From the NCBI GenBank assembly GCA_036758845.1, contig DAIOVU010000009.1, positions 10,166-74,165 on the forward strand: a stretch of DNA of 64,000 nucleotides, in the 5' to 3' direction. This DNA comes from Sediminibacterium sp. (lineage in GTDB: Bacteria > Bacteroidota > Bacteroidia > Chitinophagales > Chitinophagaceae). Positions within the stretch are counted from its first letter, which is position 1; each line of letters opens with the position of its first letter. Shown in pieces: positions 24,707-64,000 of the stretch. The position numbers were made by a program, and so were the translations under genes. The notes below the pieces were generated by a model, which worked only from the letters and a program-made list of their open reading frames with translations, searched no databases and had not been told where the DNA came from.

Positions 24707-24835
24707 TGTTTTGTTTTTTTAGTTGAACAATGAGCTTTCAGGAAAATAAAAAAACGGGGAACTATAAACGACCGCTGCAGCAGCCCTTTACATTCCATGC
24801 CTTTCACCCGAAAGCCGTGAATGATTGATTAATAC

Positions 24836-25055
24836 CTGGCAGGTCTTCTGGCTTGCTCTCTGTTGATTACCTTCCCATCTGGGCTTAGCCCGAACAGTGG
24901 TTTGAAGTTTCAACGAGCGTGGGAAATGAAGTATAAATCATGATATAACTCACGACTGACGCCTCACGCCTCACGAAAAAGCTTACAGCTACGGGGATAG
25001 CGCCGGAATTACACCGGACTTCCCTTTTAATCCCGATAACGGCGGGAACCAAATA
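24836..25055 (-). promoter_or_regulatory. cobalamin (B12) riboswitch aptamer
   Basis: The minus strand reads GGTTCCCGCCGTTATCGGGATTAAAAGGGAAGTCCGGTGTAATTCCGGCGCTATCCCCGTAGCTGTAAGC. A variable insert follows. Then come CCACTGTTCGGGCTAAGCCCAGATGGGAAGGT and the B12 box AAGCCAGAAGACCTGCC (24838..24853 on plus). All conserved blocks are in the canonical order, about 130 nt upstream of the receptor start. Confidence 0.85.
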
Positions 25056-25140
25056 CACTGCAAATGTAACGGAGCAAACGGGAAGGCAAAATTTTGTTTT
25101 GATTAAGTTGTTCACGGGGAGTTGAAAACTCGTGAAACGA

Positions 25141-32254: not shown

Positions 32255-32256
32255 TG

Positions 32257-32328
32257 TGGCCTCGCCGGGAATCGAACCTGGATCTGGAGCTTCGGAAACT
32301 CTTATACTATCCATTGTACTACGAGGCC
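32257..32328 (-). tRNA. tRNA-Arg (anticodon CCG)
   Basis: The minus strand reads GGCCTCGTAGTACAATGGATAGTATAAGAGTTTCCGAAGCTCCAGATCCAGGTTCGATTCCCGGCGAGGCCA. Acceptor stem GGCCTCG/CGAGGCC. D-arm GTAC/GTAT. Anticodon loop TTCCGAA. T-arm with TTCGATT loop. One mismatch each in the anticodon and T stems. CCA is not encoded. Confidence 0.8.
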
Positions 32329-53191: not shown

Positions 53192-53629
53192 ATGGACGGG
53201 GAACAATGGTATGGGGCCGCCTACAAAGGCTCTAAGAAATTTAACCAGTGGGAAATACCCACTGCCAACGCCACCGGTTTTGGCGCCGCTGCCGATGATT
53301 ATATGGAACGGGGTATTGACCTGAACGAACAACTGATCCGCAACAAGCCCGCCACTTTTTTCTTCCGTATGAACAGCGATGCAATGGCTGAGGCCGGCAT
53401 CTTCAGCGGCGATGTGCTGATTGTTGACAGAAGCGTAAAAGCCGTTAACGGAAAAATTATCGTGGCCATACTCAACGGCGAGTTGCTGGTGCGGCGCCTG
53501 CAAACACATATCAAAGGCGTTACACTGGTGGCAGAAAATAAAAAGTACGGAAATATCCAGGTAGAAGAGTTTAGCAATTATGCGGCGTGGGGGGTAGTTA
53601 TTTATTCTATTCACCCCCTAACCCCCTGA
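53192..53629 (+). CDS. umuD: S24 peptidase, UmuD-like (translesion polymerase V accessory / LexA-family autopeptidase)
   Basis: 145 aa. Catalytic Ser (RMNSDAM) and Lys (NGKIIVA) at S24 spacing and an Ala-Ala/Gly-type cleavage region (GFGAAADD). The last ~6 codons and the stop lie inside a family D repeat. Confidence 0.85.
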   Translation: MDGEQWYGAAYKGSKKFNQWEIPTANATGFGAAADDYMERGIDLNEQLIRNKPATFFFRMNSDAMAEAGIFSGDVLIVDRSVKAVNGKIIVAILNGELLVRRLQTHIKGVTLVAENKKYGNIQVEEFSNYAAWGVVIYSIHPLTP

Positions 53630-54238
53630 AGGGGGAATTTGATTTTTATGTACTCAACAGCAGTACTTTATTCAACTTCTGTTGCGTCGCACACTTGTAC
53701 GGTTTGTTCTATGTTCAACATTTTACCCCCCGACCCCCTGAAGGGGGAGTTAAAAAAAAGTTTATGAAACAGAAAATGTTTTATGATGCAACGCCATTGA
53801 TCTTCAGTCGCGCCAAAGAATTAAGAAATAATCTAACCCCTGCTGAAATGAAGCTATGGTCATACCTGCGTACAAAGCCATATGGCCACAAATTCCGAAG
53901 ACAACATCCGCTATGTCCTTTCATCGCTGACTTTTATTGTCATACCCTGAAATTAGTTATTGAAGCAGATGGCAGTATTCACAACAGGGATGAAGTAAAA
54001 CAGGCAGACAAAGCCAAACAGTGGTCATTGGAAATAGAAAACATCCAGGTACTTCGGTTCACCAATTCAGCTATCACAAATCAGTTCGAAGAAGTTATCG
54101 CTATCATCAATACGATACTTGCAAAAGAAAGGCCAATCAACTCCCCCTTCAGAGCCTGTCCCGCTCAAGCGGGAGGGCAGGGGGGTAAAATTATTATTTC
54201 AACCAAAAATACAGTTCCCCCTTCAGGGGGCTAGGGGT
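53612..54238. mobile_element. putative palindrome-bounded cassette carrying a DUF559 endonuclease gene
   Basis: The left boundary has two copies of CCCCTAACCCCCTGAAGGGGGAATT / CCCCGACCCCCTGAAGGGGGAGTT (53612..53640 and 53724..53751). The right boundary has two reverse-oriented copies (54139..54189 and 54214..54238, AGTTCCCCCTTCAGGGGGCTAGGGG). The cassette sits exactly between the umuD stop and the umuC start. Confidence 0.45.
53764..54234 (+). CDS. DUF559 domain protein (Vsr/restriction-endonuclease-like fold)
   Basis: The likely start is MKQKMFYDA at 53764; the track ORF at 53587 reads through repeats. DUF559 signature: LRNNLTPAEMKLWSYLR...FRRQHPLCPFIADFYCHTLKLVIEADGSIH...D..KQWSLEIENIQVLRFTN. 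The C-terminal ~30 aa are repeat-derived. Confidence 0.8.
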   Translation: MKQKMFYDATPLIFSRAKELRNNLTPAEMKLWSYLRTKPYGHKFRRQHPLCPFIADFYCHTLKLVIEADGSIHNRDEVKQADKAKQWSLEIENIQVLRFTNSAITNQFEEVIAIINTILAKERPINSPFRACPAQAGGQGGKIIISTKNTVPPSGG

Positions 54239-55519
54239 ATGCGCGCCATCGTTGATTGTAACAGCTTCTACTGCTCCTGCGAGCGTTTGTTCAGGCCCCA
54301 TCTCCAGAACAAACCTGTTGTGGTATTGAGCAATAACGACGGTTGCATCATCTCGCGCAGCGATGAGGCCAAAGCCCACGGCGTAGAAATGGCCGGCCCT
54401 TATTTTAAGGCCAAACCATTAATTGAAAAATATGGCGTGGCCACATTCTCCTCCAACTACAATCTTTATGGCGACCTGAGCTGGCGCGTTATGGAAACCC
54501 TGCGCATGCTGCTGCCACCACATTCTGTAGAAGTATATTCTGTTGATGAATGTTTTCTTGATCTCGCACATATTGCACCACAAGACCTGCAATCTTTTTC
54601 TTTATATCTGCGCGAGATGGTGGAACAATGGACCGGCATCAAAGTATCCGTTGGCGTAGCGCCAACAAAAGTGCTGAGTAAAGTAGCCAATCGTTTATCC
54701 AAAAAAAATAAAGAAGTCACCAATTGCGTACTGGTGCTTGATACACCGCGAAAAACAGAACAGGCATTAAAGCGAACGCCGATAGAAGATGTATGGGGCA
54801 TAGGCTTCCAGTATGCTGATAAACTGCGCCGCATGAACATTAATACCGCGTACGATCTCAGCATTAAAGACATTCACTGGGCAGGCAAACATTTGGGCGG
54901 CGTAACCGGCATGCGCCTGCTGCGCGAGTTAAAAGGCATTGAAAGCATACAGATGCTGGATGAACTCGTTAACAAAAAAATGATTGCCACCACCCGCATG
55001 TTCGGCTCGCCTGTTACCGATCTGAAAGATATCAAAGAGGCAATAGCAACTTATACTTCACGCGCAGCAGAAAAATTAAGACGGCAGCATAGCGCGGCCA
55101 ATACCGTAAGCGTATTTGTAGTACCCAAAGAAGAATCACATACCGCACATTTCCGGCATGGTCCCACAGTGGGCAGTCATATCATATTACCGCTTGCCAC
55201 ATCATCCACCAACGAGCTCATTAAACCTGCAGTGGCGTTGGTAGATCGTTTGTATGAAAGCGGAAGGGTTTATAAAAAAGCCGGTGTAATGCTAAGCGGT
55301 ATTGTGCCCGACAGTTCTATACAGGGCAACCTTTTTACTCCACCCGGGAAAAACAAGCACCGCATGCTGATGAGTATGATCGATAATGTGAATTTTGCTA
55401 TGCGCGATGATATATTGAAGTTTGCATCCTCCGGCACCACCCGCAACTGGAAGATGCGCCAGGAACTCCGCAGCCCGCGCTACACCACGCGTTGGGAAGA
55501 ATTGTATGAGGTAAAATAA
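54239..55519 (+). CDS. umuC: Y-family DNA polymerase (UmuC / Pol V catalytic subunit-like)
   Basis: The likely start is MRAIVDCNSFYCSCERLF at 54239 (ATG at 54239..54241); the track ORF at 54119 reads through repeats. Motifs VVVLSNNDGCIISRS, YSVDECFLD and the little-finger domain. Confidence 0.9.
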   Translation: MRAIVDCNSFYCSCERLFRPHLQNKPVVVLSNNDGCIISRSDEAKAHGVEMAGPYFKAKPLIEKYGVATFSSNYNLYGDLSWRVMETLRMLLPPHSVEVYSVDECFLDLAHIAPQDLQSFSLYLREMVEQWTGIKVSVGVAPTKVLSKVANRLSKKNKEVTNCVLVLDTPRKTEQALKRTPIEDVWGIGFQYADKLRRMNINTAYDLSIKDIHWAGKHLGGVTGMRLLRELKGIESIQMLDELVNKKMIATTRMFGSPVTDLKDIKEAIATYTSRAAEKLRRQHSAANTVSVFVVPKEESHTAHFRHGPTVGSHIILPLATSSTNELIKPAVALVDRLYESGRVYKKAGVMLSGIVPDSSIQGNLFTPPGKNKHRMLMSMIDNVNFAMRDDILKFASSGTTRNWKMRQELRSPRYTTRWEELYEVK

Positions 55520-58167: not shown

Positions 58168-58228
58168 ATCCTTGATTTTTAGGAGATATTAAAGTTACAG
58201 TGTAAGCTTCCCCTAAGTTCGCCCAATT

Positions 58229-59077
58229 TTATTTTGTCTTTTGCAGTTCTTTTAACTTGTTCGTCAATTTTTCCTTTTCGTTGCTTTCATTTGTCCTAAA
58301 ACGCAGGATAGGGAAATTATATTTGTCCATTATTTTGTCTTTCATTTTATCTCTTTCCGCTTGCTGTGTTCCCTGTTTGTGAAATTCAAAGCCGTCAACT
58401 TCTATTCCGAGAATAGGAACTTTAGAAAGTTTGTTGTAAATCAAAAAGTCTAAATGTGTCAATGGATTTGATGCGTATTTTGCTTCTTGCTCGTCTATCT
58501 TAGAAAAATCTTTAATAAGCCGTTTAATTGGGAAATGCAGAAGAACGCCATATTTCAAAAATATTTCGTCTGCTAAAACTTGTTTGATTAGGCCAAACAT
58601 TAAATTTTCGCTGTCAAACTCTGACACTTTACCTGATTTGCGAATACTTTTTGCTCGTTCTTCTTCGTAACCTTGATACAACAAATCAAAAATTGAATTT
58701 AATTCACTTTGAACAATCGAAAAGTTGTTATACTCAATATACTTTATCAAGTCAGAGATATTGTTGTCTCTTTCATTTTCATTTCCATCTACAACTAATA
58801 TCAGTTGTTCAACTGCTCTGGAAACTGCAACATTTAACCGATTAGGATTGTCTGTGAAATCAGAAATTTCGTTGTCAACAGTTGAAAGTATGATAACTTC
58901 ATTTTCTCTGCCTTGAAATTTGTCAACAGTATCCGCTTTTATTGAAGTTCCTTGAAATGCTCTTTGCAATGCATTTGTCTGATTACGATATGGCGTAACA
59001 ATACCCAAATCTACATTTTCAAGTTTTTCTTTCGGGATAATTTCCTGTTTTATAATGTCTATTTGTCGTTGATTCAT
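58229..59077 (-). CDS. C-terminal fragment of a split SF1 helicase gene: helicase motifs V-VI plus DUF2726 nuclease-like domain
   Basis: 282 aa. VTPYRNQ, TVDKFQGRENEVIILSTV (motif V), LNVAVSRA (motif VI). Then HLDFLIYNK...ILGIEVDGFEFH...ERDKMKDKIMDKYNFPILRF (DUF2726, PD-(D/E)xK-like). In frame with the upstream ORF across a single TAG. Confidence 0.8.
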   Translation of the reverse strand: MNQRQIDIIKQEIIPKEKLENVDLGIVTPYRNQTNALQRAFQGTSIKADTVDKFQGRENEVIILSTVDNEISDFTDNPNRLNVAVSRAVEQLILVVDGNENERDNNISDLIKYIEYNNFSIVQSELNSIFDLLYQGYEEERAKSIRKSGKVSEFDSENLMFGLIKQVLADEIFLKYGVLLHFPIKRLIKDFSKIDEQEAKYASNPLTHLDFLIYNKLSKVPILGIEVDGFEFHKQGTQQAERDKMKDKIMDKYNFPILRFRTNESNEKEKLTNKLKELQKTK

Positions 59078-59080
59078 TCG

Positions 59081-60781
59081 CTATCTTGCGTGATTGCCTG
59101 GTGATGTTTTGTAAACAACAAGAGGTTGGCGTTTGTCTGTATATTCTGTATGAATAATAAGTTGATTGTCATAAAATTTCTTGTTGCAAAATTCTATGAT
59201 TTTCGGGTGGCAACGATAATGTTCTCTCAAAAGTGTCTTTGGAACATTTGGAAGCAATTCAACAACAGAAGATAGCAAACTGTGATCTGAGTAACGATAA
59301 GGTTTTTTCAGGCTGTAAGAATTATAAACTATATCAGTTTTTATTTGCATATCTGCGCCAACCACATTTGGTAATTGTTTAATGTCGCCAACAATTACCG
59401 CTCGTTTTGCACAGGACAAAGCAAGTGCACCCGTTGCCAAATCAACTTGTGAAGATTCGTCAATAATTACATAGTCATAGAAAAATTTGTCGGACAAGCT
59501 CTGTCTTAATGAGTAAGTCGTACTCATAATGACAGGATAATCTTTGATAAATTCGTTTGATTTCTGACGAAGCTCTGAAATTGTATATGGTTCTCGCTTT
59601 TGCTGATTGTATCGTTTACACAATTCTGCTTTGAGAAGTTGCATTGACATCTCTGTGTATTCCTTCATTTTGTTGGCAAATGCAAAATTTTCCAAAGAAA
59701 GTTCCAAGAAATTAATTCTCTTTGTCAGTTCACTAATTTTGGTTGAATAATAATTTAATTGGCAAATGAAAATCATTTCGTCAAGTGAATTTGTGTAAAA
59801 TGATTCATTCTTAATCCCGTATTTCAGTCGGTAAATAAATTTTCTGATGAAGCCGATTTTTTTTTGTCTTTTCCCAAGTGCTTCAAGTGAAAGCCATAAT
59901 TCAAGTATTTTTTGAGCTGTGATACTTTTTTTTAGTTCTACGTTTTTTCCTGTTTGACCTTTATATGCTTCTTTGAAATGTTCATATTCTGTTTTGATAT
60001 TGTCAATTTGCAGTTTCAGCGATGCTATCTCATTTTTCTTGTCAAGGTTTTCAGAAAGTTGAGTAATCAGCATTGCTGTTTTGTCTTTCAAATCTACTTT
60101 TTCGGTATCAGATAAATTGAACTGTGATAAATCGGGAATTTCCTTTTGCGAATCGATGAACTCTTTTTTGTTTTGAGAATTTCCAAGAAGTGCAGCTACA
60201 AATTCAATACCATTCTTTTCAAGTTTTTCATAAACATTTTTTGTTACAGAATTATTGCTTGAAACAACAGCAACACTTTGTCTATTTAAAACAGCATTAG
60301 CAATAATGTTCAGTATGGTTTGTGTTTTGCCTGTTCCTGGTGGGCCTTCAATTACGCTTAAATTGTTAGCAAATGCGGTGTTAACCGCATTTCTCTGACT
60401 TAAATTAAAACCAAACGGGAAAAAATCAGGATTTGCAGAATTACTATTTCCTGTAGATAAAAAGCCGTTTAAAAAACTTGCAAGAATACAGTCTTCAGGA
60501 ATTTCAGAAATGCTGTCGTAACTTCTTGCAAGTATATTGTCGCCTTCTTCTGTTTTTAGTCCAACTGTGTCGGCAATTTCTTTTAAGTAATTGAAAACGT
60601 TAAATGCTTTGTCTCCACTTACTGCTGTCCTTACAATTTTTGCCCTGTTTTTACTGTAAGAAAATTCTTTGTAGCTGTTTTTGAAAACAACAACGCACCT
60701 GTCGCCTTTATGCGAATATTTTTCAATTCTATCGGTTACGTCTTGTTCGTCAATGTATATCAGTTCTCTTTTAAGCGGCAT
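59081..60781 (-). CDS. N-terminal fragment of a split Upf1/DNA2-like SF1 helicase (AAA_11/AAA_12 type)
   Basis: 566 aa. Unassigned ~130-aa N-domain. Walker A GPPGTGKT. ~250-aa coiled-coil insertion. Motif II VIIDESSQ, motif III VGDIKQLP, motif IV LREHYRCHPKIIEF. Ends at TAG (59081..59083) before motifs V/VI. Confidence 0.85.
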   Translation of the reverse strand: MPLKRELIYIDEQDVTDRIEKYSHKGDRCVVVFKNSYKEFSYSKNRAKIVRTAVSGDKAFNVFNYLKEIADTVGLKTEEGDNILARSYDSISEIPEDCILASFLNGFLSTGNSNSANPDFFPFGFNLSQRNAVNTAFANNLSVIEGPPGTGKTQTILNIIANAVLNRQSVAVVSSNNSVTKNVYEKLEKNGIEFVAALLGNSQNKKEFIDSQKEIPDLSQFNLSDTEKVDLKDKTAMLITQLSENLDKKNEIASLKLQIDNIKTEYEHFKEAYKGQTGKNVELKKSITAQKILELWLSLEALGKRQKKIGFIRKFIYRLKYGIKNESFYTNSLDEMIFICQLNYYSTKISELTKRINFLELSLENFAFANKMKEYTEMSMQLLKAELCKRYNQQKREPYTISELRQKSNEFIKDYPVIMSTTYSLRQSLSDKFFYDYVIIDESSQVDLATGALALSCAKRAVIVGDIKQLPNVVGADMQIKTDIVYNSYSLKKPYRYSDHSLLSSVVELLPNVPKTLLREHYRCHPKIIEFCNKKFYDNQLIIHTEYTDKRQPLVVYKTSPGNHAR

Positions 60782-61069
60782 TGTCCGAGAATATTATTTG
60801 CTGATTTCTTTTTGATGTGAAGTCGCCTATGGGTAATCGCTAACGTTCGAGGCTTGCCGCAGGGCTGGAATTCATTGCTCGTCCAGCCCGGAACCGCTGC
60901 TGAATAAAGATATAAAAGTACAGGTTAACAAACAAAAGCTCAGCTATGTTTGTCCAACCCAGATGAAGCACAACAGCGATAAAATGACCATTGCTCCAAT
61001 GTCCTGCCAGCCTTGCAGCAAACCCAATGTTATGCGTTCGCCCTTTCTTCTGTCCACCGTTATTAAGCA

Positions 61070-61103
61070 CAAAAGTACAACCTATTTTTCGGTTGTACTT
61101 TTG
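61070..61103 (-). terminator. terminator hairpin after the MmcQ/YjbR gene
   Basis: CAAAAGTACAACC-TATTTTTC-GGTTGTACTTTTG, a perfect 13-bp stem 20 nt beyond the stop at 61124. Confidence 0.65.
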
Positions 61104-61123
61104 TCAATACAAAAAATTGTGTC

Positions 61124-61480
61124 TTATAAACTGTACTTCCCCTTTATACTCTTAGAGAATTTTGAAACAACCAAATTGTAAGAGTTATCTACCCATTCAA
61201 ATATTTTTTTGTCAGGTACAGAACCGTCTATTGATACCGAAATCCAATGTTTTTCGTCAAAGTAAGCCGGTTTTCCAACTGCACTATATTCAGCTTTAAG
61301 TTCATCAATTAAATCCGGGTCGCATTTTAAGGCTATGGTGTCAAAAGTTGAAATGTAAGTTACTGTAAACATTTTATCTGCCACTTTAAACACTAAAGCA
61401 TCAGGCAGTTTTGAGAAAGGAAAACTTTCGCTTACACATTTTTTACTTACACAGTAATCTCTAAATATTTCAATATTCAT
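61124..61480 (-). CDS. MmcQ/YjbR family DNA-binding protein
   Basis: The likely start is MNIEIFRDYC at 61480 (track 61522). Pattern FRDYC...K..V.ESFPF....LVFKV..KMF........IALKCDP....L is typical of YjbR. Confidence 0.75.
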   Translation of the reverse strand: MNIEIFRDYCVSKKCVSESFPFSKLPDALVFKVADKMFTVTYISTFDTIALKCDPDLIDELKAEYSAVGKPAYFDEKHWISVSIDGSVPDKKIFEWVDNSYNLVVSKFSKSIKGKYSL

Positions 61481-61502
61481 ATTGCAAATTGATTTATAAC
61501 AC

Positions 61503-61535
61503 AAAAGTACAACCCATTTCAAAGGCTGTACTTTT
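61503..61535 (-). terminator. terminator hairpin after the SRPBCC gene
   Basis: AAAAGTACAACC-CATTTCAAA-GGCTGTACTTTT. The arms are nearly identical to the hairpin at 61070. Confidence 0.55.
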
Positions 61536-61560
61536 ATTGTGTTTAAGGTTACACATTTTT

Positions 61561-62190
61561 TTAAATTTCTGGATAAAGCGTATCAAATTTCGCAGGGTCA
61601 GCCTTTTTTTCTCCTGTTTCTAAATAATGCTTGTAATTAAGCACAGTGTTTCTTACTGCTTTCAGTTTTTTCATTTTTCTTTCTATCATTCCACCCATAA
61701 GTGCAGGCTTTCCTCTAAATATAAATGTGTTTCCTAAATATGTTTTGCCGTCATCCCCAACTCTTACTACCCAGGTATTATAAACTTTGGCAGGAAACCC
61801 TTTTGATTCGTAAACATCATAAGTATATTCTTTTCTTTTGGCACCATCTTTAAAGTCGGTTATTCTTTCTTTAATTTCAACAGTTTTGCCCGCAAAGTTT
61901 ATTTTGCAATATCTTGCTGCTCCTAATCCTTCTTTGGTGTCGCCGCTTTCACAATATGAATCGTCCACTGATTTTGCAATTTTGCCGATATTTACAAAAT
62001 TACCTGACACTTCAGCCCAAACTTCTTCTGGTGTCTTGTTTACTTCGTATTCATAATACATTACTCTGAATTTTTTGCCATCAATCATTTTTGTTCTGGC
62101 ATATCCACCATTAATGGAGTTTAAGTTTTGTGCATTTGTTGTTGCCATCATTATAAAAGTTATAATTGTTATTAATGCTTTTCGTATCAT
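61561..62190 (-). CDS. SRPBCC (START/Bet v1-like) family protein, secreted
   Basis: 209 aa. Signal peptide (…TTNAQ/N). Beta-rich core with a long C-terminal helix (PEEVWAEVSGNF...; ...MIERKMKKLKAVRNTVLNYKHYLE). Family call by overall pattern only. Confidence 0.6.
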   Translation of the reverse strand: MIRKALITIITFIMMATTNAQNLNSINGGYARTKMIDGKKFRVMYYEYEVNKTPEEVWAEVSGNFVNIGKIAKSVDDSYCESGDTKEGLGAARYCKINFAGKTVEIKERITDFKDGAKRKEYTYDVYESKGFPAKVYNTWVVRVGDDGKTYLGNTFIFRGKPALMGGMIERKMKKLKAVRNTVLNYKHYLETGEKKADPAKFDTLYPEI

Positions 62191-62216
62191 TTTTACTGCT
62201 TTAAATCTTTACTTGA

Positions 62217-62774
62217 TTAATTATTTTTCTTCCAAGTTTTACTTGCAAAAGGACCATCAACTACTGGATTTGCCAAGTTGTTAGCATAGTTAGCTATTAT
62301 TTTAGCACCTATTCCTGCAATGATGCCTAAAATGTGAACTTCTGTATAACCTGCTGAAATAAAATCGTCAATTTCTTGTTGCGAAACTTTTCCACGATTT
62401 GCAGTTAAGGAACGAGTAAGATTTGCTAATGTGTTGAGTTTTGCATCAGTAATTTGTTGTCCGTTGCGAATTGCTTCAATTATTTCTGTTGGGATTTTTG
62501 CCATCATTTCGCCAACAAAACTGTGAGCTGCCATACAATATTCGCAGCCGTTTTCATAAGAAACAACCAAACTAATGATTTGACTTTCTGCCGGTGTGAA
62601 ACCTGCATTGGCTTTAAAGCTGTCGTATGAATGAATGTAAGCGTCAAGTAACGCTGTGTTGTTTGCCATTTTTACATACATGTTTGGTAAAAATGGATTT
62701 GTTTGTTTTACTTTTTCAAGTATTTCAGTTGATAGTGGAGAAATTGTAATATTCTCTAATTTTAATTTTGCCAT
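62217..62774 (-). CDS. carboxymuconolactone decarboxylase family protein (AhpD-like)
   Basis: 185 aa. CxxC-containing motif NGCEYCMAAH typical of AhpD/CMD-fold proteins. Confidence 0.85.
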   Translation of the reverse strand: MAKLKLENITISPLSTEILEKVKQTNPFLPNMYVKMANNTALLDAYIHSYDSFKANAGFTPAESQIISLVVSYENGCEYCMAAHSFVGEMMAKIPTEIIEAIRNGQQITDAKLNTLANLTRSLTANRGKVSQQEIDDFISAGYTEVHILGIIAGIGAKIIANYANNLANPVVDGPFASKTWKKNN

Positions 62775-62865
62775 TTTGTATCTTTTTTATTGTTTGATTT
62801 AACAATGTAAAGATGGCAACAGTAAAATAGTTGGAGTTGTCGTTTTAGCCCTAAATCTTATCCAT

Positions 62866-63708
62866 TTAGTCTAATTTGTATTCCGTAGGAGTTTTGCCGT
62901 AGTGCTTTCTAAATGCCTTATTAAAACTTGGTATGGTTTCAAAGCCACAGTCGTAGGCAACATCAGCAATTGCCTTGTTTTTTATTTGAAGTAATTGAGA
63001 GGCTTTTTCTAATTTTTTCAATAAAATATATTTGGCTGGGGTTTCATTGTAATGTTCATTAAATTTTCGCTTAAATGTTGTAACACCACAATTACAAAGC
63101 TGTGCCAATTCTTCTACTGATATGTCTGTAAAAATATTTTGTTGAATTACTTCCTTAAAATTGTATTCGTGAGGTACAAATAATGATTCCACAAAATCAT
63201 AAACTGAACTTGCATTTTCACTTTTACTCAAAATCAATAAAAGCTCTTTAACTTTATTTAAAATTATATTTTCATCTACAATAGATTGATTTTCTAATAA
63301 AAAATCTATGCTGTCAATAAACAATTTCATCAATGGCTCTACATTCACTTTTAGTACATCGAACTTCTTTTGAAAATGCTTTATAGACAAATCTTTCTCG
63401 AAAAACCCTTTTACCATTTCGGGATAAAAGAAAGCACTTATTAAAGCGATATTGTCGTTTTCTGTATTTTCCTGTACAGATATATTTTCAAAAAAATAGT
63501 TACCACACTTGGCTAACATCGCTTCGTTTTTGCAGTAAGTCAGCACATTTGTTGGTGTCCGAAATTGAAAAGAGCCATTAGTTAAAAACAAAAAGCAAGC
63601 TTCGGTTTCTGAAAAATGTTTAGGAATACGTTTAAAATCAGGTGTCATTACTAATTTTTCAAACACTGGTTTGTTGTTATGGCTTATTGTTTTATGGTCT
63701 AGTATCAT
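62866..63708 (-). CDS. AraC family transcriptional regulator
   Basis: 280 aa. C-terminal double HTH (VEELAQLCNCGVTTFKRKFNEHYNETPAKYILLKKLEKA...IADVAYDCGFETIPSFNKAFRKHYGKTP). Confidence 0.85.
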   Translation of the reverse strand: MILDHKTISHNNKPVFEKLVMTPDFKRIPKHFSETEACFLFLTNGSFQFRTPTNVLTYCKNEAMLAKCGNYFFENISVQENTENDNIALISAFFYPEMVKGFFEKDLSIKHFQKKFDVLKVNVEPLMKLFIDSIDFLLENQSIVDENIILNKVKELLLILSKSENASSVYDFVESLFVPHEYNFKEVIQQNIFTDISVEELAQLCNCGVTTFKRKFNEHYNETPAKYILLKKLEKASQLLQIKNKAIADVAYDCGFETIPSFNKAFRKHYGKTPTEYKLD

Positions 63709-64000
63709 ATTTCTTTTCTTTCAGTTTGTCAGTTAGCAGGGTGCTTCGGTAGGGTGACGCATAACTTGTAAATATCCGAAAAACCTTCCTAAAAACATTC
63801 ACAAACCCAGCCCTACAAAGCTGATACACGTATTAGTTTTGCGTTTTTTAAGTATCTCAAAGTACGCCAATCCATCCATCCCCTACCGGGAAAAATCCCG
63901 CATTTCACCTCGCACAGAATATAAATAAGCCAATACAACACAAATGAAAATGTTATTGGCAGGTACGCAAGCATTTAGCGATGTAACAGGTTTTGGGTTG

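What the first reader, a model, noticed from the sequence alone, without database searches (positions are those of the whole stretch)
58229..60781. Upf1-like SF1 helicase fused to a DUF2726 nuclease-like domain, split by a single in-frame TAG, in an AT-rich island
**What the sequence shows**
- The two adjacent minus-strand ORFs are in the same frame.
- Reading the minus strand across 59098..59063 gives CCA GGC AAT CAC GCA AGA TAG CGA ATG AAT CAA CGA, that is P G N H A R * R M N Q R.
- The upstream ORF carries helicase motifs I-IV: GPPGTGKT, IIDESSQ, GDIKQLP, HYRCHP.
- The downstream ORF carries motifs V-VI: TVDKFQGRENEVIILSTV, LNVAVSRA. Neither ORF is therefore a complete helicase.
- Together they reconstitute a polypeptide of about 850 aa. 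It ends in a DUF2726 / PD-(D/E)xK-like module (HLDFLIY...IEVDGFEFH...ERDKMKDK...ILRF).

**Why it matters**
- Single-polypeptide helicase plus nuclease architectures in low-GC islands are the hallmark of several anti-phage systems, for example the Nhi and Hna types.
- I do not recognise this particular order as a named system: unknown 130-aa N-domain, then coiled-coil-interrupted Upf1-like helicase, then C-terminal DUF2726.
- The TAG is one nucleotide away from several sense codons. It could be a recent inactivation, a sequencing error or a read-through site.
Basis: partly seen in the sequence, partly recalled or inferred. Interest (0 to 1): 0.7.

Follow-up and report, generated by a model that had tools for sequence, protein, structure and literature searches.

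The report
Broken mobile helicase–nuclease defence-type gene
This is a copy, inactivated by one premature stop codon, of a very widespread but unnamed single-gene helicase-plus-nuclease that jumps between bacterial phyla and often sits among anti-phage genes; the family is a reasonable untested immunity candidate, while this copy is an ordinary pseudogene.

Summary
Two minus-strand ORFs (59081..60781 and 58229..59077) share one frame. They are separated by a TAG at 59083..59081. Joined, they give an 850-aa protein:
- an N-terminal domain of about 124 aa,
- a Upf1-like SF1 helicase (AAA_11/AAA_12) with a long helical insertion,
- a C-terminal DUF2726 Vsr-like nuclease.

More than 100 uninterrupted orthologues of about 850 aa (76-90% identical) have Glu at that codon, so the change is GAG to TAG.

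The stop is real. The same split products occur on 13-17 contigs from at least seven metagenome samples. It is not programmed. Other genomes carry TAA stops at codons 266, 397 and 788, or a truncation. The window lineage also shows an excess of replacements at otherwise invariant positions.

The family occurs in at least 594 species across several phyla. It has no conserved partner gene, and only the gene itself is shared at DNA level. Its neighbours are often restriction and other defence genes. In this window, however, the neighbours are not defence genes.

It is not Nhi, Hna, Hhe, Mokosh or a CoCoNuT. The closest designs are Hhe and the type III-B CoCoNuT helicase CnuH.

Verdict: a pseudogene of an unnamed, probably defensive, mobile helicase-nuclease. 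Interest is moderate to low.

The parts
58229..60781 (-). Whole disrupted gene: 850 codons including one internal TAG. It is orthologous to intact 846-866-aa proteins.
   Evidence: Identity is 76-90% over 100% of the length to more than 100 uninterrupted proteins.
59081..59083 (-). Premature amber stop at codon 567 (ancestral GAG, Glu). A single G>T change on the coding strand.
   Evidence: Glu is present in at least 90% of orthologues. The codon is GAG in L006, L007, L009 and L031, with identical flanking bases in L006 and L007. The same allele occurs on 13-17 contigs.
60410..60781 (-). N-terminal domain, residues 1-124. It has a five-strand small beta module (residues about 5-52), a helix (57-72) and a poorly modelled linker. 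It is specific to this family.
   Evidence: No Pfam hit. phmmer against 1.84 billion representatives found 167 hits, all of them fragments or 850-920-aa family members. Foldseek gave only non-significant SH3-like, Sac7d and integrase-CTD hits.
58727..60409 (-). Upf1-like SF1 helicase core, residues 125-685, motifs I-VI. It is split by the stop inside the second RecA-like domain.
   Evidence: Pfam AAA_11 and AAA_12. PDB sequence hits to IGHMBP2, DNA2, Sen1 and Upf1. Foldseek hits to SETX, IGHMBP2, Aquarius, Upf1 and Dna2.
59609..60109 (-). Long helical insertion, residues about 225-391, between Walker A / motif Ia and motif II. It resembles a stalk or coiled coil.
   Evidence: AF2 secondary structure shows helices 225-272, 289-304, 333-366 and 368-391, with pLDDT 75-92.
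58247..58615 (-). C-terminal DUF2726 (Vsr/DUF559-like PD-(D/E)xK) nuclease domain, residues 723-845. The family-invariant residues D778, E794, D796, H801, R810, D811 and R827 are all retained.
   Evidence: Pfam DUF2726 at 40.1 bits against a cut-off of 24.7, plus a weak MTES_1575 match. AF2 pLDDT is about 80-88. The fold assignment comes from PMC3424549 and PMC3710099.
60782..60855 (-). Conserved 5' leader shared with orthologues. It includes GTTAGCGAT at 60844..60836, which is the 5' arm of a short inverted repeat in orthologues.
   Evidence: blastn boundaries fall at 60795-60919. Alignment A5. Motif count.
58217..58228 (-). 12-nt 3' tail (AATTGGGCGAAC) shared with orthologues. Similarity ends sharply at 58217, and the 3' arm ACCGCTAAC seen in orthologues is absent here.
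58200..63900 (.). AT-rich block (30-36% G+C). It holds the helicase-nuclease pseudogene plus YjbR, SRPBCC, CMD and AraC genes that are not co-transferred with it.
   Evidence: Composition. Gene content. No DNA similarity outside the gene to 85 other loci.

Best explanation
The locus is a pseudogene. A single GAG-to-TAG change at codon 567 truncates an otherwise complete copy of a horizontally mobile, stand-alone helicase-nuclease gene.

The intact protein (about 850 aa) has three parts:
- a family-specific N-terminal small beta-barrel domain,
- a Upf1/DNA2-type SF1 helicase whose first RecA-like domain carries a long helical stalk,
- a C-terminal Vsr/DUF559-type (DUF2726) endonuclease.

Shown here:
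- the domain composition and the conservation of all helicase motifs and nuclease residues across phyla,
- the stand-alone gene organisation,
- transfer of the gene alone between hosts,
- frequent neighbours that are restriction or defence genes,
- recurrent independent nonsense alleles.

Inferred:
- The intact protein acts as a one-protein nucleic-acid surveillance and defence enzyme.
- The motor loads on single-stranded DNA or RNA of an invader or of a replication intermediate. This is possibly guided or gated by the N-terminal domain and the stalk.
- It translocates 5' to 3', as Upf1-family helicases do, and presents substrate to the attached endonuclease, which nicks or cleaves it.

In this window the stop falls inside the second RecA-like domain. 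It separates motifs I-IV from motifs V-VI and the nuclease, so ATP-driven translocation and coupled cleavage are lost. The allele is fixed in an environmental Bacteroidota population and has begun to drift.
For: Frame, stop and motifs:
-.

Domains:
- Pfam AAA_11, AAA_12 and DUF2726 are all above their cut-offs.
- PDB and Foldseek hits go to IGHMBP2, Sen1/SETX, Upf1, Dna2 and Aquarius.

Orthologues:
- More than 100 intact orthologues of 846-866 aa are 76-90% identical over full length.
- Glu is present at codon 567 in at least 90% of them. The codon is GAG in the nearest DNA relatives.

The allele is real:
- The identical 566-aa and 282-aa products occur on 13-17 contigs from JGI and Logan samples. 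These are 99.8-100% identical to the window.
- TAG ends 10 of 45 long ORFs in the window.

Decay:
- The window lineage has 33 replacement and 9 silent changes at positions invariant in six relatives. Three intact lineages together have 56 and 62 (Fisher p = 5e-4).
- Branch dN/dS is about 0.19, against 0.12-0.15 among intact orthologues.

Independent inactivations elsewhere:
- TAA stops at codons 266, 397 and 788, and a truncation after residue 576.

Stand-alone and mobile:
- At least 594 species encode a relative, spanning Bacteroidota, Clostridia, Alphaproteobacteria, Melainabacteria, Treponema, Bdellovibrionaceae and Desulfovibrionaceae.
- No neighbour family is shared by more than 6 of 79 loci.
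- DNA similarity is confined to the gene plus 50-140 nt upstream and 12 nt downstream.
- The gene is 31-37% G+C whatever the host.

Defence context elsewhere:
- Flavobacterium ammoniigenes: integrase, SIR2, DUF87, caspase, DUF4238, HEPN and IS1.
- Niabella hirudinis: HEPN, integrase, RhuM and an Eco57I-helicase.
- Nearest-neighbour survey: ResIII, DEAD, DUF3427, PLD, McrBC, Mrr, NERD and Fic. PADLOC families PbeA, type I, III and IV REases, SoFic and DpdF.
- Second neighbours: AAA_15, AAA_21, a TIR protein and recombinases.
Against: - No experiment shows that any member of this family defends against phage or plasmids.
- Enrichment of defence neighbours was judged from family counts, without a matched control set.
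- Some loci have housekeeping-looking neighbours (Reichenbachiella; Bacteroides finegoldii; and this window).
- The substrate (DNA or RNA) and the polarity are inferred from family membership only.
- The full-length AF2 model is mediocre (pLDDT 66, pTM 0.42). The domain arrangement and the N-domain fold are therefore uncertain (no significant hit).
- The dN/dS elevation is modest. It could partly reflect diversifying selection before the stop arose.
- The downstream ORF starts with a conserved ATG 3 nt after the stop, so production of a C-terminal fragment cannot be excluded.
Confidence: 0.72

Rival explanations
1. The TAG is a sequencing or assembly error and the organism really encodes the intact 850-aa protein.
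For: A single-base difference from the orthologue codon GAG. The rest of the frame is intact.
Against: The exact 566-aa and 282-aa products were called on 13 and 17 contigs from several JGI metagenomes (3300024957, 3300004164, 3300024934, 3300004235, 3300004169) and Logan run assemblies (SRR5430572, SRR5430787). One of these is a 99.77% variant strain that still carries the stop.
Confidence: 0.03
2. The split is functional. Either TAG is read through or recoded, or the two polypeptides are made by termination-reinitiation at the ATG 3 nt downstream and work together as a two-piece helicase-nuclease. A third variant is that the free C-terminal nuclease fragment has its own role.
For: Both halves are free of further stops or frameshifts. 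An ATG lies 3 nt after the stop. The allele persists unchanged in many samples.
Against: - TAG is an ordinary stop in this genome (10 of 45 long ORFs).
- M569 and its ATG are ancestral and invariant in intact orthologues, so they did not evolve for reinitiation.
- Orthologues are overwhelmingly single ORFs.
- Stops in other genomes are TAA and lie at different codons.
- The break lies within the second RecA-like domain, not at a domain border.
- There is an excess of replacements at invariant positions, including A179V beside motif Ia.
Confidence: 0.07
3. The family is not an immune gene. It is a housekeeping or repair helicase-nuclease, for example processing flaps or stalled forks in the manner of Dna2.
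For: Sequence and fold similarity to DNA2, IGHMBP2 and Sen1. Some loci lie among ordinary metabolic genes.
Against: - The distribution is patchy, with 75-92% DNA identity between different genera and detectable DNA similarity across phyla, confined to the gene itself.
- There is no conserved synteny.
- G+C is atypical in most of the hosts checked.
- Many neighbours are restriction or defence genes or integrases.
- Pseudogenisation is recurrent.
Confidence: 0.13
4. The gene is primarily a selfish mobile cassette. Its helicase-nuclease promotes its own spread or maintenance, like a homing or addiction module, rather than protecting the host.
For: Sharp, reproducible cassette boundaries. A short inverted repeat (GTTAGCGGT ... 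ACCGCTAAC) brackets the gene in the closest orthologues. The nuclease is of the Vsr/DUF559 group, which includes homing-type endonucleases (PMC3424549).
Against: The 9-nt repeat pair is present in only 6 of 80 loci and is barely above chance as a flank-to-flank alignment. No transposase or recombinase is conserved with the gene. No target-site duplication was found.
Confidence: 0.08

Closest known systems
Hhe (Gao et al. 2020; NCBIfam NF042953 'DUF4011 domain-containing anti-phage protein Hhe')
   Same: A single polypeptide. It joins a Upf1-like SF1 helicase core (AAA_11/AAA_12) to a C-terminal Vsr/DUF559-type (MTES_1575-like) endonuclease. The helicase cores are homologous: PADLOC Hhe E = 1.1e-21 and NCBIfam 97.5 bits.
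   Different: Hhe is about 1800-1900 aa and has an N-terminal DUF4011 and additional C-terminal regions. This family is 850 aa, lacks DUF4011 and has its own N-terminal beta module. The score of 97.5 bits is far below the equivalog cut-off of 2000, and only about 250 residues align.
CnuH of type III-B CoCoNuT systems (Bell et al. 2024, PMC11090510)
   Same: A small N-terminal nucleic-acid-binding-type domain, then a UPF1-like helicase with a large helical or coiled-coil insertion after Walker A, then a directly fused Vsr-like PD-(D/E)xK nuclease. This is the same three-part plan.
   Different: CoCoNuTs are defined by an operon with McrB-like GTPase (CnuB) and McrC-like (CnuC) genes, plus CnuA. 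Here no partner gene is conserved. McrBC and AAA_5 each appear in only 2 of about 130 neighbours. The III-B N-domain is described as a wHTH, whereas here a beta module is predicted. No III-B sequence was available for direct comparison.
Mokosh (MkoA/MkoB; type II MkoC)
   Same: The best PADLOC hits are MkoA (E = 1.3e-49) and MkoC (E = 3.9e-48). These reflect a shared Upf1-like helicase core coupled to a nuclease effector.
   Different: The matches cover only the helicase part of 1100-1600-residue models. The Mokosh effector is a PLD nuclease, not DUF2726. Mokosh proteins carry other N-terminal regions.
Nhi (nuclease-helicase immunity) and Hna
   Same: Single-protein nuclease-plus-helicase anti-phage enzymes.
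   Different: Nhi has an N-terminal HsdR-like nuclease followed by a DUF2075 SF1 helicase, about 610 aa in all. Hna has an SF2 helicase with a C-terminal PD-(D/E)xK domain (PMC11232893). Here the helicase is AAA_11/AAA_12 (Upf1-like) and the nuclease is C-terminal DUF2726. PF09848 (DUF2075/SLFN helicase) matches only the Walker A region, at 24.5 bits.
Eukaryotic and archaeal Dna2 and the Upf1/IGHMBP2/Sen1 helicases
   Same: The same helicase clade by sequence and fold, with a stalk-like insertion in RecA1. Dna2 also combines a PD-(D/E)xK nuclease with this motor.
   Different: In Dna2 the nuclease is N-terminal, of a different PD-(D/E)xK family, and contains an Fe-S cluster. These proteins are conserved housekeeping factors, not patchily distributed mobile genes.

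Membership tests
Upf1/DNA2-like SF1 helicases (Pfam AAA_11 + AAA_12) | Both Pfam domains above the gathering score, and motifs I-VI present. | tested here: met
   AAA_11 at 84.3 bits and AAA_12 at 104.5 bits (cut-off 27) on the joined sequence. Motifs located. PDB hits to IGHMBP2, DNA2, Sen1 and Upf1.
DUF2726 (PF10881; Vsr/DUF559-type PD-(D/E)xK fold) | Pfam match above the gathering score, and a conserved acidic/His catalytic constellation. | tested here: met
   40.1 bits against 24.7, covering residues 723-845. D778, E794, D796, H801, R810, D811 and R827 are invariant in 24 sequences down to 42% identity. Nuclease activity itself is not testable here.
Pseudogene (nonsense allele) | A premature stop relative to intact orthologues, shown not to be an artefact. 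| tested here: met
   TAG at codon 567, where orthologues have Glu/GAG. The allele was recovered in independent assemblies.
Hhe | NCBIfam equivalog score of at least 2000, and an N-terminal DUF4011. | tested here: not met
   97.5 bits, aligning residues 368-617 only. No DUF4011 hit in Pfam.
Mokosh (MkoA+MkoB or MkoC) | A full-length match to MkoA or MkoC, and a PLD nuclease effector. | tested here: not met
   The matches span model positions 616-1099 of 1112 and 556-948 of 1136, that is, only the helicase core. There is no PLD domain and no conserved PLD neighbour.
Nhi | An N-terminal HsdR-like nuclease followed by a DUF2075-type SF1 helicase, about 610 aa (PMC11232893). | tested here: not met
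   The nuclease is C-terminal and is DUF2726. PF09848 matches residues 141-214 only, at 24.5 bits. No Nhi model appears among the PADLOC hits. Whether PADLOC-DB 2.0 contains an Nhi model was not verified.
Hna | An SF2 helicase core with a C-terminal PD-(D/E)xK domain (PMC11232893). | tested here: not met
   The core is SF1 Upf1-like.
CoCoNuT type III-B (CnuH-Vsr with CnuB/CnuC/CnuA) | A UPF1-like helicase with a helical insertion after Walker A and a fused Vsr-like nuclease. | tested here: met
   Helices spanning residues 225-391. DUF2726/MTES_1575 C-terminus. The description of the type is in PMC11090510.
CoCoNuT type III-B (CnuH-Vsr with CnuB/CnuC/CnuA) | A conserved operon with McrB-like GTPase and McrC-like genes. 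| tested here: not met
   No neighbour cluster is shared by more than 6 of 79 loci. McrBC Pfam appears in 2 of 134 nearest neighbours and AAA_5 in 2 of 133 second neighbours. There is none in the window.
CoCoNuT type III-B (CnuH-Vsr with CnuB/CnuC/CnuA) | Direct sequence relationship to published III-B CnuH proteins. | not testable with these tools
   The supplementary sheet holding the III-B sequences was truncated in the held copy.
Defence-island gene (guilt by association) | Statistically enriched next to known defence genes across genomes. | tested here: inconclusive
   Many restriction or defence families occur among 267 neighbours, and three loci were inspected by hand. No matched background control was run, and the window's own neighbours are not defence genes.

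The most novel reading that the evidence does not exclude
The intact family is a genuine, so far unnamed, one-protein anti-phage or anti-plasmid system, a 'mini-Hhe' or stand-alone CnuH-Vsr. It is among the commoner immune genes of gut Clostridia and environmental Bacteroidota. It spreads between phyla as a single-gene cassette of about 2.65 kb with defined ends. Its family-specific N-terminal beta-barrel would act as the sensor that licenses the helicase-driven nuclease.
Probability: 0.4. Interest if true: 0.55.

Novelty: new variant of a known kind. Interest (0 to 1): 0.35.

Why it matters
For this window, the result is that the split helicase is a decaying pseudogene. It is not a sequencing artefact, a recoding site or a two-gene system, and it should be annotated as such.

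For the family:
- It is an abundant protein annotated only as 'AAA domain-containing protein'. At least 594 species carry a relative, and some 90%-identity clusters from gut metagenomes hold thousands of sequences.
- It has the helicase-plus-Vsr-nuclease logic of Hhe and of the CoCoNuT III-B helicase, in a minimal stand-alone form.
- If it is shown to defend, it would be a compact model for how Upf1-type motors are coupled to nucleases in prokaryotic immunity.
- It would also illustrate a defence gene moving as a bare single-gene cassette, and recurrent loss of such genes by nonsense mutation.

Tried and rejected
- Sequencing error: rejected because identical alleles occur in independent assemblies.
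- TAG reassignment: rejected. TAG ends 10 of 45 long ORFs here, the orthologous residue is Glu, and stops in other genomes are TAA.
- A conserved two-gene split: rejected. L054 ends near the same place (residue 576), but by replacement with unrelated DNA.
- A conserved partner gene or operon: none was found by all-against-all clustering of 551 neighbour ORFs.
- The whole AT-rich block as one transferred island: no DNA similarity outside the gene in 85 loci.
- Long terminal inverted repeats or insertion into a palindrome: flank-to-flank alignments exceeded shuffles in only 3 of 22 loci. Only a 9-nt pair recurs. This is kept as a side note, not a claim.
- N-domain identity: no Pfam, PADLOC or NCBIfam hit. 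Foldseek E-values were at least 0.3. A search of 1.84 billion representatives found the domain only in this family.
- Phage carriage: only one partial hit in 50,697 phage records.
- Literature: searches for DUF2726 with helicase, Hhe/DUF4011, Nhi, and the E. coli accession found no paper naming this architecture.
- Rfam and the promoter/terminator scans added nothing at the locus.


Full report
**1. Observation**

Reading the minus strand and listing ORFs confirms two adjacent ORFs, 59081..60781 (566 aa) and 58229..59077 (282 aa).
- They share one frame and are separated only by TAG (59083..59081) and CGA, followed by an ATG.
- Translating 58229..60781 in one frame gives 850 codons with a single internal stop.
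- Pfam on the joined sequence gives AAA_11 (residues 125-474, E = 1.6e-23), AAA_12 (499-665, E = 7e-30) and DUF2726 (723-845, 40.1 bits against a cut-off of 24.7), with a weak MTES_1575 match on the same stretch.
- Residues 1-124 match nothing.
- The gene is 33% G+C in a genome of about 40-47%.

**2. The stop codon**

A search of 5.8 billion protein clusters returned more than 100 uninterrupted proteins of 846-866 aa. They are 76-90% identical over the full length.
- In an alignment of 14 of them, the position of the stop is Glu in at least 90%.
- At DNA level the nearest relatives read ...GCAAGAGAGCGAATG... where the window reads ...GCAAGATAGCGAATG.... This is one G>T change.

TAG is a normal terminator in this genome: 10 of 45 ORFs of at least 200 aa end in TAG.

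The stop is not an assembly error.
- The exact 566-aa and 282-aa products are called on 13 and 17 contigs. They come from several JGI metagenomes and Logan assemblies of SRA runs, always with the same neighbours.
- These contigs are 100% identical to the window over 1.5-15 kb.
- One contig is 99.77% identical. Its 17 differences all lie in the two genes downstream of the pseudogene (DUF72 and DUF4136), and it still carries the stop.

The stop is not a conserved feature of the family.
- Of 79 loci from other species, three have in-frame TAA stops at codons 266, 397 and 788.
- One locus is truncated after residue 576 by unrelated DNA.
- All the other loci are intact.

The window lineage also shows signs of decay.
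- It carries 33 replacement and 9 silent changes at positions invariant in six close relatives.
- Three comparably placed intact lineages together carry 56 and 62 (Fisher p = 5e-4).
- The replacements include A179V next to motif Ia, a residue invariant down to 42% identity.
- Nei-Gojobori branch estimates give dN/dS of about 0.19 for the window branch, against 0.12-0.15 between intact orthologues.

I read this as a gene that was under purifying selection for most of its history and has been drifting for a short but non-zero time. The ATG 3 nt after the stop encodes the ancestral, invariant Met569, so it did not evolve as a restart site.

**3. What the intact gene is**

By sequence and by fold the core belongs to the Upf1/DNA2 clade of SF1 helicases.
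- PDB sequence hits go to IGHMBP2, DNA2, Sen1, Upf1 and Aquarius.
- Foldseek hits go to SETX, IGHMBP2, Aquarius, Upf1 and Dna2.

An AlphaFold2 model of the closest intact orthologue is only moderately confident overall (pLDDT 66, pTM 0.42), but it is informative locally.
- A five-strand beta module spans residues about 5-52, followed by a helix.
- Long helices between residues 225 and 391 are inserted into the first RecA-like domain. This is the 'stalk' position of Upf1-type helicases.
- The C-terminal alpha/beta domain is well modelled (pLDDT about 80-88) and corresponds to DUF2726.

DUF2726 is classified with Vsr and DUF559 among PD-(D/E)xK nucleases (PMC3424549). It is described as a restriction-endonuclease-fold DNase fused to various defence-type N-terminal domains (PMC3710099). 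D778, E794, D796, H801, R810, D811 and R827 are invariant across Bacteroidota and Clostridia members. All are retained in the window.

The N-terminal domain remains unidentified.
- Foldseek on a separate model gave only non-significant matches (E of at least 0.3). They recurred on SH3-like DNA binders such as Sac7d and retroviral integrase C-terminal domains.
- A phmmer scan of 1.84 billion representatives found the domain only in fragments or in 850-920-aa members of this same family.
- Clostridial members carry the beta module twice.

**4. Distribution, mobility and context**

- Distribution: a scan of one genome per species found at least 594 species encoding a relative. Full-length matches at 43-90% identity occur in Bacteroidota, Clostridia, Alphaproteobacteria, Melainabacteria, Treponema, Bdellovibrionaceae and Desulfovibrionaceae.
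- Abundance: some gut-metagenome clusters hold thousands of member sequences.
- No partner gene: clustering 551 ORFs within 4 kb of the gene in 79 loci found no family present in more than six loci. The gene is stand-alone.
- Mobility: nucleotide similarity between the window and all other loci is confined to window 58217 to about 60850-60919. That is the ORF, 12 nt after the stop and 50-140 nt before the start. Identity is 73-92% across different Bacteroidota genera, and similarity is detectable even to other phyla.
- Composition: the gene keeps 31-37% G+C whatever the flanks.

Context varies between genomes.
- Flavobacterium ammoniigenes: the gene lies between SIR2, DUF87, caspase, DUF4238 and HEPN genes, with an integrase and IS1.
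- Niabella hirudinis: it lies near HEPN, an integrase, RhuM and an Eco57I-type enzyme.
- Reichenbachiella and a Bacteroides finegoldii record: the neighbours look ordinary.
- Among 134 nearest neighbours, the commonest Pfam families were ResIII and DEAD (9 each), DUF3427 (4), SWI2/SNF2, Fic, PLD and NgoFVII (3 each), and McrBC, Mrr, NERD, Macro and DUF3800 (2 each).
- The commonest PADLOC families in that set were PbeA, type IV, I and III restriction enzymes, SoFic, DpdF and PDC-S04.
- Among second neighbours were AAA_15, AAA_21, ResIII, topoisomerase, recombinases and a Pycsar-type TIR protein.

This pattern fits a defence-island gene. I did not run a matched control, so the enrichment is qualitative.

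In the window itself the neighbours are YjbR, SRPBCC, CMD and AraC on one side and DUF72 and DUF4136 on the other. None is a defence gene and none travels with the helicase.

**5. Mechanism (inferred)**

By analogy with its helicase clade, the intact enzyme should load on single-stranded nucleic acid and move 5' to 3' using ATP. The covalently attached Vsr-type endonuclease would cut the substrate it encounters or exposes. The stalk and the N-terminal beta module are the likely sites of target recognition or autoinhibition.

The premature stop removes motifs V-VI and the nuclease from the N-terminal 566 residues. It lies inside the second RecA-like domain, so neither fragment can be a motor.

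**6. Comparison with known systems**

No full-length match exists in PADLOC-DB 2.0. The best hits are MkoA, MkoC, PDC-S37 and Hhe, and they cover the helicase core only. The same holds for NCBIfam 20: IGHMBP2, ProA, PLuB and Hhe all score far below their cut-offs.
- Hhe shares the Upf1-like core and a Vsr-type C-terminal nuclease. It is twice the size and is defined by DUF4011.
- The type III-B CoCoNuT helicase CnuH has the same three-part plan: a small N-domain, a UPF1-like helicase with a coiled-coil insertion, and a fused Vsr-like nuclease. However, it is defined by its operon with McrB- and McrC-like genes, which this family lacks (PMC11090510).
- A related E. coli O157:H7 protein (helicase plus DUF2726, no N-domain) is preceded by an overlapping 171-aa ORF of unknown family. 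It is likewise unnamed.
- Literature searches found no paper describing this architecture.

**7. Verdict**

The copy in this window is a real, population-level nonsense pseudogene of a mobile, stand-alone helicase-nuclease.

The family is best described as a new, minimal variant of the helicase-plus-Vsr-nuclease kind of candidate defence protein. Its defensive role is inferred, not shown. Interest is moderate to low for this locus and moderate for the family.

Noticed in passing
window 60836..60844 (-) and 58217..58228 (-); L001, L005, L006, L009, L031 gene flanks: In the closest orthologues a 9-nt inverted pair brackets the shared cassette. GTTAGCGGT lies 50-65 nt before the ATG and ACCGCTAAC lies 1-15 nt after the stop. 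The window keeps the 5' copy (GTTAGCGAT) but lacks the 3' copy, and similarity to orthologues stops exactly at 58217. This may mark the ends of the mobile unit, or it may be chance.
   Followed up: partly
L010 codon 266, L028 codon 788, L031 codon 397, L054 after residue 576: Four other genomes carry independently inactivated copies. They include the isolates Persicobacter diffluens, Algoriphagus vanfongensis and Paenimyroides ummariense. Three have in-frame TAA stops and one has a truncation, so loss of this gene is recurrent.
   Followed up: yes
L097 9435..12115 (E. coli O157:H7 EDL933 record NZ_CP124741.1): E. coli has a 722-aa helicase-DUF2726 relative without the N-terminal domain. It is preceded by a 171-aa ORF that overlaps it by 4 nt and has no Pfam or PADLOC hit. 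It is followed by a PAPS-reductase and ParB-N gene pair. This could be a two-gene version of the same system.
   Followed up: partly
P0122, P0160, P0206 and other Clostridial relatives, residues 1-190: Gut Clostridia versions are about 900 aa because the N-terminal small beta module is present twice in tandem. Some 90%-identity clusters hold thousands of metagenomic members (for example, 5668 for P0122).
   Followed up: partly
window 53587..55519 (+) and the upstream gene: A DUF559 (Vsr-like endonuclease) gene lies between a Peptidase_S24 (UmuD/LexA-like) gene and a Y-family polymerase (IMS/UmuC-like) gene. This is an unusual insertion into a umuDC-type pair, and it belongs to the same nuclease superfamily group as the helicase's C-terminal domain.
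   Followed up: no
window 60840..61070 (-): A 76-aa ORF was called as a gene in several metagenome annotations. It lies over and just beyond the 5' end of the conserved leader (its 3' end, 60840-60855, overlaps that leader) and has no Pfam hit. It is probably not a real gene.
   Followed up: partly
window 24821..25068 (-) and 32256..32328 (-): A cobalamin riboswitch (81 bits) and a tRNA-Arg(CCG). Both are unrelated to the finding.
   Followed up: no
L007 7239..8429: In the closest chromosome-level relative (a Chitinophagaceae MAG), the second gene upstream of the intact orthologue encodes a CAP12/Pycsar-type TIR effector domain protein.
   Followed up: no
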